From the NCBI GenBank assembly GCA_903828955.1, contig CAIKOA010000006.1, positions 441 to 64,440 of the forward strand: a DNA stretch of 64,000 nt, in the 5' to 3' direction. This stretch comes from an uncultured Candidatus Micrarchaeota archaeon (GTDB lineage: Archaea; Micrarchaeota; Micrarchaeia; Anstonellales; Bilamarchaeaceae). Shown here piece after piece: positions 17,468 to 60,393 of this stretch. Under the pieces are notes generated by a model. The model was not told the DNA's origin. It saw nothing but the letters and a program-made list of their open reading frames with translations, and made no database searches. How positions within the stretch are numbered: position 1 is the stretch's first letter; the number at the start of each line of letters is the position of its first letter. A program made the translations under genes and the position numbers.

Positions 17468-17686
17468 TCGGCAGGCGGGGGAAGGTCCCCCTCCTCCCGT
17501 TAACCAACCCCCCGCGATATTCCCACATCCTTAGATAACTTTGCAACTCTTCGCGCTTTCCCTTAAGGAACAGTGGCGTAAGGAGACGGACAAAGAGCCG
17601 CAAAAATATAAGAAAAAGTAATATCTGATGCTGTTTTTTCTTTGGGTGAACCGCACCTTTCTTTTTTACAAAAAAGAAAGGGGAGA

Positions 17687-17785
17687 CGGGCCCGACGGGA
17701 TTTGAACCCATACTCCGAGGTTTCCCCTGCAATCAGGAGAAGGCATTCGAAGCCTCGTCGGCTATCCAGGTTACCAAACGGGCCC
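17687..17785 (-). tRNA. tRNA-Arg(TCG) with 25-nt intron at 37/38 (intron 17722-17746)
   Basis: Acceptor GGGCCCG/CGGGCCC; anticodon stem CGAGG/CCTCG around CT-TCG-AA; T-loop TTCAAAT; intron forms a BHB (CTTC:GGGG helix, 3-nt bulges). Confidence 0.88.
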
Positions 17786-17856
17786 ATTTGCTAGGTATTC
17801 CCAGCATAAGTTTATTTATGGCTTCCACTACGCGGAAATAAAACAAAAAATAAAAA

Positions 17857-58221: not shown

Positions 58222-58307
58222 TTAGAATACCCTGTTCCTAAACCTTCCTCCCCACGTATTTAAATATTATCTAAACATCTTCTTAATTGTCTTTTATAGG
58301 TGGGAAT

Positions 58308-59309
58308 ATGCTGAGAGTGGGAATTTCAGGTTTTGGGAGAATCGGAAGGATGTTTTTGCGCGCCGCAGTTGACCAGAGCGCGCTGGGGCGGGACTTTGAA
58401 GTCGTAATGATAAACAACCGCAGCGACGAATTCGTAAACGCGCACTTATTCAAGTACGATTCTGCCCACGGGCGCTTTAAAGGAACAGTCGAAGTGAAAA
58501 AAGGCCTCCTTACGGTAAACGGGCACCAGATAGAATGGACTTCGCAAACCGACCCCAAAAGAATCCCATGGGGGGAGAACAAAGTTGATGTGGTTATTGA
58601 ATCCACAGGAAAATTCAAGGGGAAAGCGGACGCGAGCGCGCACCTGGAAGCAGGGGCAAAAAGAGTAATCATCTCCGCGCCCGCTGAAGGCTGCCCCATG
58701 ATTGTTCCCGGAGTGAATATGCAGACCGCGGACAGGAACGAGACCGTATTTTCCCTTGCTTCCTGCACAACGAACTGCCTTGCCCCTGCGCTTAAAGTGC
58801 TTAATGATAATTTCGGGGTTGAACGCGGCTTCATGACGACCACGCACGCATATACGAACGACCAGAACATTCTGGACGGCTCGCACAAGGATTTGAGGAG
58901 GGCGCGCGCAGCCGCAGTTTCAATCATTCCGACTTCCACCGGTGCCGCAAAGGCAATCGGCTCCGTAATTCCGGACCTTGCCGGGAAAATGGACGGCTTT
59001 GCCCTCCGCGTTCCGGTAGTTGACGGCTCGATTACGGACATTACCGTACAGGTGAAGAAGCCCGCAAAGAAGGAGGAAGTGAACGCAGCCCTCAAGAAGT
59101 CAGCGGAAGGCCCGCTCAAAGGAATTCTCCAATATACTGAAGAGCCGCTTGTTTCCGTTGACATAATCGGAAACCCGCACTCTTCAATTATTGATGGGCA
59201 GCTTACAAACTCGCTAGGAAACATGGTAAAGGTCGTTTCCTGGTACGATAACGAGTACGGCTACTCAAACCGGCTCGTGGATTTCGTTAAATACATGAAG
59301 AGTTGGTGA
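58308..59309 (+). CDS. gap: Glyceraldehyde-3-phosphate dehydrogenase, type I
   Basis: GFGRIGR, KYDSAHG, ESTG, ASCTTNCLAP, IIPTSTGAA, SWYDNEYGYS. Confidence 0.95.
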   Translation: MLRVGISGFGRIGRMFLRAAVDQSALGRDFEVVMINNRSDEFVNAHLFKYDSAHGRFKGTVEVKKGLLTVNGHQIEWTSQTDPKRIPWGENKVDVVIESTGKFKGKADASAHLEAGAKRVIISAPAEGCPMIVPGVNMQTADRNETVFSLASCTTNCLAPALKVLNDNFGVERGFMTTTHAYTNDQNILDGSHKDLRRARAAAVSIIPTSTGAAKAIGSVIPDLAGKMDGFALRVPVVDGSITDITVQVKKPAKKEEVNAALKKSAEGPLKGILQYTEEPLVSVDIIGNPHSSIIDGQLTNSLGNMVKVVSWYDNEYGYSNRLVDFVKYMKSW

Positions 59310-59318
59310 AACGGAGAG

Positions 59319-60046
59319 GTGTCAGACATCCAAGAAGAAAGAATAAAGCCACAGCACATCGCCTTCATCCCTGATGGAAATTTGTGAAAACAACCATAAA
59401 CAGGAGATGGGGCGAACTGCATGGCATTCCGCGCAAGGAGGCCTACGAAACCGGAATCCGCAAAATCAGCGACATCCTCGGCTGGTGCAGGGACGAGAAC
59501 ATAAGGAACGCGACCTTCTGGGGTTTTTCCACCGAGAATTTCGGCAGGGACCCGAACGAAATCTCTTCCCTTTTCGAGCTTTTTGAAAAAGACCTGGTTG
59601 CAATCCTTACGCGCAAGAACGATGCCCTGCGGCAGAACGTGCGCGTGCGTTTCTTCGGAAGAATCAACCTTTTCCCGAAAAAGGTTTACGACCTCCTCCG
59701 CAAAGTGGAAGAGATGTCTGCCAACAATACGGATTACAACCTGAACATCCTCCTTGCTTACGGAGGAAGGGCGGAAATAGTGGATGCAGCCAACGCCGCG
59801 CTTAAGGAAGGCAAAAAAGAGCTTTCTGAAGAAATCCTAAGCGCGCACATGTACACGCACGGGCTCCCGGACCCGGACATGATAATCCGCACTTCCGGGG
59901 AAAGGCGCACAAGCGGCTTCTTGCCATGGCAAACGGTGTATAGCGAGCTCTATTTCAGCGAGAAGCTCTGGCCGGATTTTTCACGGGAGGATTTCATGGA
60001 CGCGCTCCGTTTCTACGAGAAAACGCAAAGGAGATTCGGAAAATGA
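59319..60046 (+). CDS. uppS: Cis-prenyltransferase UppS, join(59319..59379,59400..60046), 235 aa after removing a 20-nt insert
   Basis: Exon 1 from GTG gives MSDIQEERIKPQHIAFIPDG(N); exon 2 gives RRW...FSTENFGR...AYGGR...IRTSGE.RTSGFLPWQ..YSELYF...WPDF...RRFGK. Confidence 0.9.
59380..59399 (+). other. Candidate 20-nt bulge-helix-bulge mRNA intron
   Basis: Central helix AUGG:CCAU flanked by two AAA bulges; removal restores GAT GGA AAC AGG AGA TGG (DGNRRW). Confidence 0.8.
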
Positions 60047-60393
60047 TTGTGGAAAATTTGCAAAACGGAAAAATCGTAGAATGCAACTCTGCCACAACTT
60101 CCTTCCAAAGATTCCGGGGGCTGATGTTCCGCGGGAAAATAATCCCCATCCTCTTTGATTTCAAAAAGAACGGAATATTCCCAATCCACTCCTTCTTCGT
60201 ATTCTCCAAATTCGTTGCATTCTATATCTCTTCTGAAGGGGAAATCCTGGAGGTTTACCCAGTGAACCCCTTCCAGCCTTACGTAAGCAATGTGGGCCCA
60301 GCCCGCTACCTTCTGGAAATAGACCATATGCGGGCGGCCTGGTTCAGGAAAGGAGACAAGGTGAAGATAACATGCTCGGGTGGAAAATCCTAA
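60043..60393 (+). CDS. DUF192-like protein
   Basis: ATTSFQRFRGLMF, IHSFFV, ARYLLE, GDKV. Confidence 0.8.
   Translation: MIVENLQNGKIVECNSATTSFQRFRGLMFRGKIIPILFDFKKNGIFPIHSFFVFSKFVAFYISSEGEILEVYPVNPFQPYVSNVGPARYLLEIDHMRAAWFRKGDKVKITCSGGKS

What the first reader, a model, noticed from the sequence alone, without database searches (positions are those of the whole stretch)
59319..60046. Candidate BHB-spliced micro-intron in a protein-coding gene (uppS), inside the catalytic DGNRRW motif
Seen: the uppS frame from GTG 59319 reads HIAFIPDG-N-L-stop (TGA 59385-87). The rest of the gene (RRW...) is in another frame, and the ORF-track product lacks the catalytic Asp. The RNA folds into a canonical BHB: central 4-bp helix AUGG(59374-77):CCAU(59394-97) and 3-nt bulges AAA(59378-80) and AAA(59398-400). 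The inner stem is closed by a GAAA tetraloop (UUGU-GAAA-ACAA). The exon-exon stem is long: CCUG:CAGG, CAUC:GAUG, UCGCC:GGCGA. Established: archaeal tRNA splicing endonuclease (EndA) cuts after the second nt of each bulge. Here that removes 59380-59399 (20 nt) and regenerates GAT GGA AAC AGG AGA TGG = DGNRRW exactly. Archaeal mRNA introns are known to me mainly from crenarchaeal cbf5. Inference: this lineage splices mRNAs with the tRNA machinery, making the polyprenyl-carrier synthase splicing-dependent. Gene callers would miss such introns genome-wide as truncated genes or pseudogenes.
Basis: partly seen in the sequence, partly recalled or inferred. Interest (0 to 1): 0.93.

Follow-up and report, generated by a model that had tools for sequence, protein, structure and literature searches.

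The report
tRNA-type intron splitting archaeal uppS gene
A 20-base insert that breaks the only gene for the lipid-carrier enzyme UppS in a tiny archaeon (Micrarchaeota) has every sequence hallmark of an intron cut out by the tRNA-splicing enzyme, a kind of intron so far known inside only one other archaeal protein gene, but the spliced RNA itself has not been seen.

Summary
The single uppS gene is split at 59380-59399. Exon 1 ends HIAFIPDG, and the Prenyltransf domain follows in another frame. The RNA folds (z = -4.9) into a bulge-helix-bulge.

The insert is real DNA: contigs from two studies carry it. An insert of 15-114 nt sits at exactly this site in 30 of 93 uppS genes of this Micrarchaeota family. 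It is in 0 of 14 genomes from other families of the order, and in none of the 68 more distant loci (one does not cover the site).

All 30 inserts block translation: 18 shift the frame and 12 carry in-frame stops. Cutting after the second nucleotide of each bulge restores an AAC codon, and so DGNRRW, in 30 of 30.

Helix pairs covary through synonymous exon positions. The Asp wobble base pairs with its intron partner in 30/30. The outer helix is fully paired in 30/30 intron-bearing genes but only 11/63 intronless ones.

The genome encodes an ARMAN-2-type epsilon2 endonuclease and RtcB.

No spliced RNA was seen; one RNA-library contig holds the unspliced form. No second split gene was found. This is a new member of the cbf5 kind of intron.

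The parts
59319..59379 (+). uppS exon 1: GTG start, 20 codons plus 1 base, ending ...HIAFIPDG + A
   Evidence: The H-I-A-I/F-I-P-D-G block with an upstream start codon is kept in 30 of 30 intron-bearing relatives.
59380..59399 (+). 20-nt BHB-type intron. Because of the A runs, the cut pair could equally be written one or two bases to either side.
59400..60046 (+). uppS exon 2: AC + RRW... through the TGA stop, the Prenyltransf domain
   Evidence: Pfam PF01255, E 1.7e-68. It is the only uppS in the genome.
59359..59373 (+). 5' strand of the exon-exon (outer) helices, lying in the Ile-Ile-Pro codons
   Evidence: MFE fold. Paired in 30/30 intron-bearing genes but only 11/63 (first helix) and 19/63 (second helix) of intronless genes.
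59374..59377 (+). Central helix, 5' strand: AUGG, from the Asp and Gly codons
   Evidence: Pairs with 59394-59397. The Asp wobble base covaries with its partner in 30/30: U:A 9, C:G 21.
59378..59381 (+). 5' bulge AAAU (4 nt). The predicted cut lies after 59379.
59382..59393 (+). Inner stem-loop of the intron: UUGU-GAAA-ACAA
   Evidence: The inner part differs freely among relatives.
59394..59397 (+). Central helix, 3' strand: CCAU, within the intron
59398..59400 (+). 3' bulge AAA. The predicted cut lies after 59399.
   Evidence: The 3' bulge is AAA in 28, UAA in 1 and AGA in 1 of 30.
59401..59415 (+). 3' strand of the outer helices, lying in the Asn-Arg-Arg-Trp-Gly codons

Best explanation
The insert at 59380-59399 is an archaeal bulge-helix-bulge (BHB) intron inside the coding sequence of the only uppS (cis-prenyltransferase) gene of a Micrarchaeota genome.

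Proposed mechanism. In the pre-mRNA, the codons for I-I-P-D-G pair with the codons for N-R-R-W-G and with the 3' end of the intron. This builds outer helices, a 4-bp central helix and two bulges, the same geometry as a pre-tRNA intron at position 37/38. The genome's three-unit epsilon2 splicing endonuclease (ARMAN-2 type, broad specificity) cuts after the second nucleotide of each bulge. RtcB then joins the exons, which restores GAU GGA AAC AGG AGA UGG (DGNRRW) and a 235-aa enzyme.

Shown here:
- the insert is real DNA;
- the fold and its covariation;
- the frame is restored at the canonical cut sites;
- both enzymes are encoded;
- the gene is single-copy and both exons are conserved.

Inferred, not shown:
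- the cleavage and the ligation themselves;
- that unspliced mRNA yields only a 22-residue peptide.

History. The intron is old in this family and has been lost or shortened many times. That is inferred from its patchy spread and from long introns that resemble each other across three genera.
For: (1) Structure. The MFE fold has z = -4.94, and 0 of 200 shuffles fold as well.

(2) Real DNA. Contigs of runs X1 and X2 (study P1, 0 differences) carry the 20 nt. So does a contig of X4 from a second study, P2 (8 differences, 0 gaps).

(3) Same site in relatives.
- 8 of 30 loci in the first batch carry an insert.
- 22 of 68 further loci carry one.
- Together that is 30 of 93 family genomes with uppS, in 10 of 23 genera; 6 genera hold both states (genus labels).
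- 0 of 14 genomes from other families of the order have it. None of the 68 more distant loci has it; 67 cover the site.

(4) None can be read through. Lengths run 15-114 nt. 18 shift the frame, and all 12 in-frame inserts carry in-frame stops.

(5) The canonical cuts give the junction codon AAC in 30 of 30.

(6) Covariation through synonymous sites.
- Asp wobble base with its intron partner: U:A 9, C:G 21, 0 discordant. Both types occur within 4 genera.
- Outer helix: CCUG:CAGG 15 and CCGG:CCGG 15, so 30/30 paired, against 11/63 intronless.
- Pro third base with Arg first base: Watson-Crick in 30/30 against 21/63 (Fisher p = 8e-11; relatives are not independent).
- Second outer helix: 30/30 against 19/63.

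(7) The BHB (outer 4 bp, central at least 3 bp, 3-nt 3' bulge) appears in the unconstrained MFE fold of 28 of 30.

(8) Exon 1 keeps a start codon and H-h-x-h-h-P-D-G in 30/30. Exon 2 is open with no internal stops in every match. There is one uppS per genome here. Among the intron-bearing genomes only G004 has a second match, a 103-residue piece at a contig end.

(9) Machinery.
- A 381-aa EndA matches PDB 4fz2_A over its full length, E 2.6e-130. The abstract of PMC3488258, seen in the listing, describes that enzyme as the fourth-type EndA of Candidatus Micrarchaeum acidiphilum.
- This EndA is found in 95 of 99 family genomes.
- RtcB PF01139 is present, E 1.1e-172.
- Passages of PMC3239211 report that the epsilon2 enzyme cleaves both strict and relaxed BHB motifs, and that relaxed motifs have bulges of 1-4 nt.

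(10) My motif scanner, using the same geometry and cut rule, recovers 3 of 5 ARAGORN tRNA introns of this genome at the exact coordinates.

(11) The spliced product aligns without a gap to an intronless congener.
Against: - No spliced RNA was seen. The one RNA-library run that could be laid (X10) gave a contig from a relative about 90% identical that still holds the insert. No joint across 59379/59400 was listed. That contig could be pre-mRNA or DNA carried over in the library.
- The motif is not a strict 3-4-3 BHB. The 5' bulge is 4 nt here. Across the family the central helix has 4 pairs in 18, 3 pairs in 11 and 2 pairs in 1 of 30. The 5' unpaired run is 0-13 nt, and 2 of 30 do not show the BHB in the MFE fold.
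- No test of the enzyme on this substrate exists.
- The statistics count related genomes, so p-values overstate the case.
Confidence: 0.88

Rival explanations
1. The gene is a decaying pseudogene, and the insert is a disabling insertion with no RNA-level repair.
For: As called, the product lacks the catalytic Asp. The unspliced form is the only one seen in an RNA library.
Against: - It is the only uppS in a 95.6% complete genome.
- 30 species keep the insert, yet every exon 2 is open without stops.
- Exon 1 keeps its start codon and the HIAIIPDG block in 30/30.
- The insert's 3' end covaries with a synonymous exon base in 30/30. A dead gene would not maintain that.
Confidence: 0.03
2. The ribosome skips the insert by translational bypassing (as in phage T4 gene 60) or some other recoding, and the mRNA is not cut.
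For: In this window the codon after Gly is AAU, and an AAC lies just before the Arg codon. A tRNA-Asn hop could in principle give DGNRRW. A stop codon and a hairpin lie inside the gap.
Against: - A matching Asn take-off codon exists in only 13 of 30 inserts. A Gly landing triplet exists in only 3 of 30. By my reading, two of those three also have the Asn codon, so at most 14 of 30 could be rescued this way.
- Gaps reach 114 nt.
- The conserved feature is a BHB with both junctions in bulges and with exon-exon pairing, which bypassing does not need.
- Frameshifting cannot rescue the 12 in-frame inserts that carry stops.
Confidence: 0.04
3. The structured insert is removed from the RNA, but by a nuclease or ligase other than EndA and RtcB, or it acts mainly as a regulatory hairpin that is only sometimes removed.
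For: The motif is relaxed. No cleavage assay exists. An unspliced form is present in an RNA library. A second, short EndA-like ORF lies near endA.
Against: The geometry and cut positions are exactly those of this genome's own tRNA introns. The epsilon2 enzyme type is reported to accept relaxed motifs (PMC3239211 passages). No Rfam family matches the region at E up to 1.
Confidence: 0.04
4. The 20 nt is an assembly or sequencing artefact.
For: None beyond the prior for metagenome-assembled genomes.
Against: The insert is present in contigs of three DNA runs from two studies. It is also present in 29 other species-level genomes at the same site, with different sequences.
Confidence: 0.01

Closest known systems
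cbf5 pre-mRNA intron of Crenarchaeota (Desulfurococcales and Sulfolobales). Watanabe et al. 2002 was seen only as a reference entry. For Yokobori et al. 2009 (PMC2738675) I read the abstract and part 1 of 2 of the Results section.
   Same: - A short BHB-type intron inside a protein-coding frame.
- The cut is predicted between the 2nd and 3rd bulge residues.
- Mostly relaxed ('unconventional') BHB, in lineages whose endonuclease has broad specificity.
- The interior is highly variable.
- Patchy distribution, read as lineage-specific loss.
   Different: - Different gene: a metabolic enzyme, uppS, not an RNA-modification enzyme.
- Different phylum: DPANN/Micrarchaeota, not Crenarchaeota.
- Different endonuclease architecture: epsilon2, not (alpha-beta)2.
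- The intron sits inside the catalytic motif codons.
- cbf5 splicing was shown by cDNA and cleavage assays. Here it is only inferred.
Canonical archaeal pre-tRNA intron at position 37/38
   Same: The geometry is identical: outer helix, then a 4-nt strand pairing with the intron's 3' part, then the bulge. This genome's tRNA-Ile, tRNA-Met and tRNA-Val introns are found by the same scanner with the same cut rule. After splicing, the exons form a stem closing a 7-nt loop, with the junction between loop nucleotides 6 and 7.
   Different: The host RNA is an mRNA with no tRNA body. The helix strands are made of codons, so they are kept through synonymous choices.
BHB intron in the 5' UTR of Haloferax volcanii HVO_1309 (PMC7714728; passages read)
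   Same: An mRNA substrate of the tRNA splicing endonuclease outside Crenarchaeota.
   Different: That one lies in the untranslated leader and does not interrupt the reading frame. It was shown in vivo and in vitro.
IRE1/RtcB splicing of XBP1/HAC1 mRNA in eukaryotes (recalled; mentioned in passages of PMC13149111)
   Same: A short intron is removed from an mRNA by a protein endonuclease at stem-loops, the ends are joined by a tRNA ligase, and the reading frame changes.
   Different: The nuclease and the recognition motif are unrelated. That system is a stress-regulated switch. No regulation is shown here.

Membership tests
Archaeal BHB intron (substrate of splicing endonuclease EndA) | Two bulges on opposite strands separated by a 4-bp helix, flanked by an exon-exon helix and an inner helix | tested here: met
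   Window: MFE fold, with a 4-nt 5' bulge and a 3-nt 3' bulge. Family: 28 of 30 show it in the MFE fold. The central helix has 4 pairs in 18, 3 pairs in 11 and 2 pairs in 1 of 30. This is the relaxed form, not the strict 3-4-3 motif.
Archaeal BHB intron (substrate of splicing endonuclease EndA) | Cutting after the 2nd nucleotide of each bulge yields a functional product | tested here: met
   The junction codon is AAC in 30 of 30. The spliced frame is 235 aa and aligns without a gap to an intronless orthologue.
Archaeal BHB intron (substrate of splicing endonuclease EndA) | Helices are maintained by compensatory change | tested here: met
   Central pair 2: U:A 9, C:G 21, 0 discordant. Outer pair: U:A 15, G:C 15. 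Both run through synonymous codon positions. Relatives are not independent, but both central-pair types occur within 4 genera.
Archaeal BHB intron (substrate of splicing endonuclease EndA) | The host encodes EndA of a type that accepts the motif, plus an RNA ligase | tested here: met
   PF01974 hits. A 381-aa three-unit enzyme matches 4fz2_A at E 2.6e-130. RtcB is present at E 1.1e-172.
Archaeal BHB intron (substrate of splicing endonuclease EndA) | The spliced RNA, or the excised or circular intron, is observed | tested here: inconclusive
   One RNA-library run was laid. It gave an unspliced contig from a relative and no joint.
Archaeal BHB intron (substrate of splicing endonuclease EndA) | Cleavage by purified EndA at the predicted bonds | not testable with these tools
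   This needs a bench assay.
Translational bypass (T4 gene 60 type) | Matched take-off and landing codons flanking the gap | tested here: not met
   An Asn take-off codon exists in 13 of 30 and a Gly landing triplet in 3 of 30. By my reading, at most 14 of 30 have either.
Self-splicing group I / group II intron | A catalytic RNA core of hundreds of nucleotides | tested here: not met
   Inserts are 15-114 nt. No Rfam match at E up to 1 in 59000-60100.

The most novel reading that the evidence does not exclude
The I-I-P-D-G-N-R-R-W coding stretch of uppS acts as a mimic of a tRNA anticodon arm: a stem closing a 7-nt loop, with the intron at the equivalent of position 37/38.

On this reading, a tRNA-type intron entered the mRNA there, for example by reverse action of the endonuclease and ligase or by recombination with a spliced tRNA copy. 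It has since dictated the synonymous codon choice of the flanking exons.

Splicing would then make synthesis of the polyprenyl lipid carrier, and so envelope and glycan assembly, depend on the cell's tRNA-splicing capacity. That would be a growth-coupled switch, not a neutral passenger.
Probability: 0.2. Interest if true: 0.85.

Novelty: new member of a known kind. Interest (0 to 1): 0.72.

Why it matters
- Rarity. According to the passages I read of a 2020 study (PMC7714728), BHB introns in mRNA were then known for cbf5 of Crenarchaeota, inside the frame, and for one Haloferax leader. My eight full-text searches found no report for uppS, Micrarchaeota or DPANN. If this is spliced, it is a second, independent case inside a coding frame. 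It lies in a different phylum, uses a different endonuclease type and sits in a core metabolic gene.

- Natural experiment. It comes with 30 intron-bearing and 63 intronless orthologues in one family. That set shows exon codon choice held by an intron's structure, and it records repeated loss and shrinkage down to 15 nt.

- Annotation. Gene callers give a UppS without its catalytic Asp in about a third of this family. Metabolic reconstructions could therefore wrongly score the enzyme as defective.

- Testability. The ARMAN-2 enzyme has already been purified and assayed (PMC3239211), so the prediction can be tested directly.

Tried and rejected
RNA evidence.
- Ten runs were listed, and only one was an RNA library (X10, 0.05 of the sampled words).
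- When laid, X10 gave a 348-nt contig from a relative about 90% identical. It covers 59103-59415 and still holds the insert, with G>A at 59386 and an extra T after 59393.
- A second contig starts at 59398, which is where the spliced and unspliced forms converge. That is at most a weak hint.
- No joint across the insert was listed. I count this as no evidence either way.

Genome-wide search for other split protein genes.
- A strict-motif scan gave 11,747 raw hits. An ORF-merging filter passed 1,035 of them, against 964.5 for random positions, so the filter has no power.
- Of the 7,809 hits folded (those spanning at most 110 nt), 31 (30 unique places) keep the BHB in the local MFE fold. By my reading, only uppS joins a short started frame to a long one that is otherwise cut off.
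- The next-best candidate, C30:10540-10558, is the boundary between a zinc-ribbon ribosomal protein gene and a membrane protease gene. Those names are my reading of the translations.
- This filter is insensitive: none of the three tRNA introns that the raw scan finds survives it.
- I ran a whole-genome tblastn in both directions against the one-contig relative G021, using ORFs of 120 aa or more. It gave 3 candidates in G000 and 5 in G021. Of the 3 in G000 I inspected two, C9 and C31; both are adjacent genes with their own stop and start.
- The third, an in-frame 192-nt extra on C33 whose second piece has E 0.6, I dismissed unread. Of the 5 in G021 I inspected one. It lies in what I recognise from memory as the complement of 23S rRNA domain V, so it is an rRNA insert. 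The other four I did not open: three involve one long G000 ORF matching several places, which I took for a repeat protein, and one is an in-frame 189-nt extra.
- Control: with intronless UppS queries, the 20-aa exon 1 was picked up in 1 of 3 tries. Short terminal exons would mostly be missed. Introns shared by both genomes are invisible to this test; uppS itself was not flagged.

Other checks.
- Rfam: no match in 59000-60100 at E up to 1.
- Of the 68 more distant loci, 8 were flagged by my pattern for lacking DGN codons directly upstream. On reading them, 3 are alignment offsets with contiguous DGNRRW codons, 4 are residue substitutions, and 1 is cut at a contig end so the site is not covered. 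Some of these loci are the same contigs as G handles, for example L033 = L021.
- I did not build a tree, so 'ancestral with many losses' rests only on the genus tallies and on the similarity of the long introns of G061, G084, G087 and G097.
- I did not search collections for the spliced junction. That would have meant typing a joined sequence, and a hit could not be told apart from the DNA of an intronless strain.
Supplements were not opened. The intron size table of PMC2738675 is in a supplement I did not see.

Full report
WHAT IS THERE.
The window is G000:C6:441-64440, from a 1.22-Mb genome in 35 contigs that is 95.6% complete. Titles of related records name Candidatus Micrarchaeota.

At 59319 a GTG opens a 22-codon frame that ends ...HIAFIPDGNL and stops at TGA 59385-59387. 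A second frame, 59384-60046, carries the Prenyltransf domain (PF01255, E 1.7e-68, profile positions 5-219) and begins at ...RRW. A gap gene lies upstream, 58287-59309. A DUF192 gene starts at 60043, overlapping the uppS stop.

It has three exon-exon helices, the central helix AUGG:CCAU, a 3' bulge AAA, and an inner UUGU-GAAA-ACAA hairpin. The energy is -24 kcal/mol, z = -4.94, and 0 of 200 shuffles fold as well. The one correction is that U59381 is unpaired, so the 5' bulge has 4 nt.

Removing 59380-59399 gives a 708-nt frame of 235 aa. It aligns to the intronless UppS of a congener with 153/229 identities and no gap across the junction.

IT IS REAL DNA AND THE ONLY COPY.
Contigs of two runs from one study carry the insert with no difference. 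A contig from a second study carries it with 8 substitutions and no gap. The genome has a single uppS match.

THE SAME SITE IS OCCUPIED IN MANY RELATIVES.
In a first batch of 30 loci from relatives of the same order, 8 have an insert between the Gly and Arg codons and 22 do not. Two congeners are among those without it.

I then fetched the site from the other 68 family genomes that have uppS; 22 more carry an insert. In total:
- 30 of 93 family genomes have it (99 were searched, 93 have a match);
- they fall in 10 of 23 genera, and 6 genera hold both states;
- 0 of 14 genomes from other families of the order have it;
- none of 68 more distant archaeal and bacterial loci has it; one of these is cut at a contig end and does not cover the site.

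Lengths run 15-114 nt. Eighteen shift the frame. All 12 whose length is a multiple of three carry in-frame stop codons. None can simply be read through.

Even so, exon 1 keeps a start codon and the block H-I-A-I-I-P-D-G in 30 of 30, and exon 2 is open without stops in every genome. This rules out decay.

THE STRUCTURE IS UNDER SELECTION.
- Cutting after the second nucleotide of each bulge gives the junction codon AAC in 30 of 30.
- The second pair of the central helix joins the wobble base of the Asp codon to an intron base. It is U:A in 9, C:G in 21 and never discordant. Both types occur inside four genera.
- The outer helix is CCUG:CAGG in 15 and CCGG:CCGG in 15. It pairs the Pro wobble base with the first base of a synonymous Arg codon. 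It is fully paired in 30/30 intron-bearing genes against 11/63 intronless ones.
- The single Pro:Arg pair is Watson-Crick in 30/30 against 21/63 (Fisher p = 8e-11; this overstates the case because relatives are not independent).
- The next helix is paired in 30/30 against 19/63.
- In 28 of 30 the unconstrained MFE fold shows an outer helix of 4 bp, a central helix of at least 3 bp and a 3-nt 3' bulge.

The motif is relaxed on the 5' side. The unpaired run there is 0-13 nt, most often 3-6. The central helix has 4 pairs in 18, 3 pairs in 11 and 2 pairs in 1 of 30.

THE MACHINERY IS PRESENT.
- The genome has two PF01974 hits.
- The larger, 381 aa, matches PDB chain 4fz2_A over its full length, E 2.6e-130. 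That is the three-unit epsilon2 enzyme of Candidatus Micrarchaeum acidiphilum (abstract of PMC3488258, listing).
- Passages of PMC3239211 report that this enzyme type cuts strict and relaxed motifs, and that relaxed motifs include bulges of 1-4 nt.
- The same enzyme is found in 95 of 99 family genomes, with and without the intron.
- RtcB is present, E 1.1e-172.
- A scanner I wrote with the same geometry and cut rule recovers 3 of 5 tRNA introns called by ARAGORN in this genome at the exact coordinates. So the uppS motif has the layout of this organism's own canonical tRNA introns.
- After splicing, the exons form a stem with a 7-nt loop, and the junction lies between loop nucleotides 6 and 7, as at tRNA position 37/38.

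WHAT IS NOT SHOWN.
No spliced RNA was seen. The single RNA-library run gave an unspliced contig from a relative about 90% identical and no joint. Cleavage and ligation are inferred.

RIVALS.
- Pseudogene and assembly artefact are excluded by the points above.
- Ribosomal bypassing would need matched take-off and landing codons. An Asn take-off exists in 13 of 30 and a Gly landing triplet in 3 of 30, and gaps reach 114 nt.
- Self-splicing introns are far larger, and no Rfam family matches.
- Removal by some other nuclease cannot be excluded without an assay.

IS IT WIDESPREAD IN THE GENOME?
I found no second case.
- The motif scan combined with ORF merging is no better than random: 1,035 passes against 964.5.
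- Among 30 unique places whose BHB survives local folding, only uppS joins frames in the expected way. The runner-up is a gene boundary.
- A two-way tblastn comparison with a complete relative gave 3 candidates in this genome and 5 in the relative. The three I inspected are two boundaries between adjacent genes and an insert in what I take to be 23S rRNA. The other five I dismissed without opening them: four look like a repeat protein or a weak match, and one is an in-frame 189-nt extra.
- These searches are weak for short terminal exons (1 of 3 in a control) and blind to introns shared by both genomes.

COMPARISON WITH WHAT IS KNOWN.
The closest case is the cbf5 pre-mRNA intron of Desulfurococcales and Sulfolobales. 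That is also a relaxed BHB, cut between the 2nd and 3rd bulge residues, with a variable interior and lineage-specific loss. It was confirmed by cDNA (PMC2738675, abstract and part 1 of 2 of the Results).

A 2020 study states that cbf5 was until then the only additional BHB intron reported in archaea, and it adds one in a Haloferax 5' UTR (PMC7714728 passages).

Eight full-text searches found nothing on uppS, Micrarchaeota or DPANN mRNA introns. Subscription papers and supplements were not covered.

I therefore rate this as a new member of a known kind: a new gene, a new phylum and a new endonuclease type, with unusually clear exon-intron covariation.

VERDICT.
Confidence is 0.88 that this is a BHB intron removed at the RNA level. 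Interest is 0.72.

Noticed in passing
G000:C16, locus L003:1462-1944 (-), outside the window: A second, short EndA-like ORF of 160 aa. It has a PF01974 catalytic-domain hit at E 1.8e-08. It lies about 2.3 kb from the three-unit endA gene. It may be a separate structural or catalytic subunit, or a remnant.
   Followed up: partly
whole genome G000; within the window, 17685-17786 (-): ARAGORN finds only 27 tRNA genes in a 95.6% complete genome, and 5 of them have introns. This suggests that many tRNA genes are disrupted at non-canonical sites. The one inside the window is called tRNA-SeC(tca) with a 25-nt intron. My strict scanner did not recover it.
   Followed up: partly
G021:C1:227461-227500 (loci L101-L179): An extra hairpin-forming stretch of about 40-49 nt relative to G000:C8:95766-96188. 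The region is highly conserved, and I recognise it from memory as the complement of 23S rRNA domain V. It may be an rRNA intron or an expansion in that relative.
   Followed up: partly
introns of G061, G084, G087 and G097 (loci L207, L181, L186, L228): The long introns (63-114 nt) from three different genera share a similar 5' stretch and a matching 3' arm. This suggests common descent of the intron and later shrinkage to 15-20 nt in other lineages.
   Followed up: partly
window 59307-59321 and 60043-60046: uppS is packed tightly between gap and a DUF192 gene. A purine-rich stretch lies just before GTG 59319, a few bases after the gap stop. The uppS stop overlaps the DUF192 start (ATGA). This looks like one operon.
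   Followed up: no
L098 (named record, 'archaeon isolate'), match 1501-2126: uppS of this distant archaeon matches as two overlapping pieces in different frames (residues 1-121 and 123-214). That points to a frameshift or sequencing error in mid-gene, not at the DGN site.
   Followed up: no
G028:C16:12599-13303 (-): In this other-family genome the uppS match is split into residues 1-136 and 140-214, with about 70 extra bases between them, all inside one open frame of 271 aa. This is an in-frame insertion, not a stop-bearing insert.
   Followed up: no
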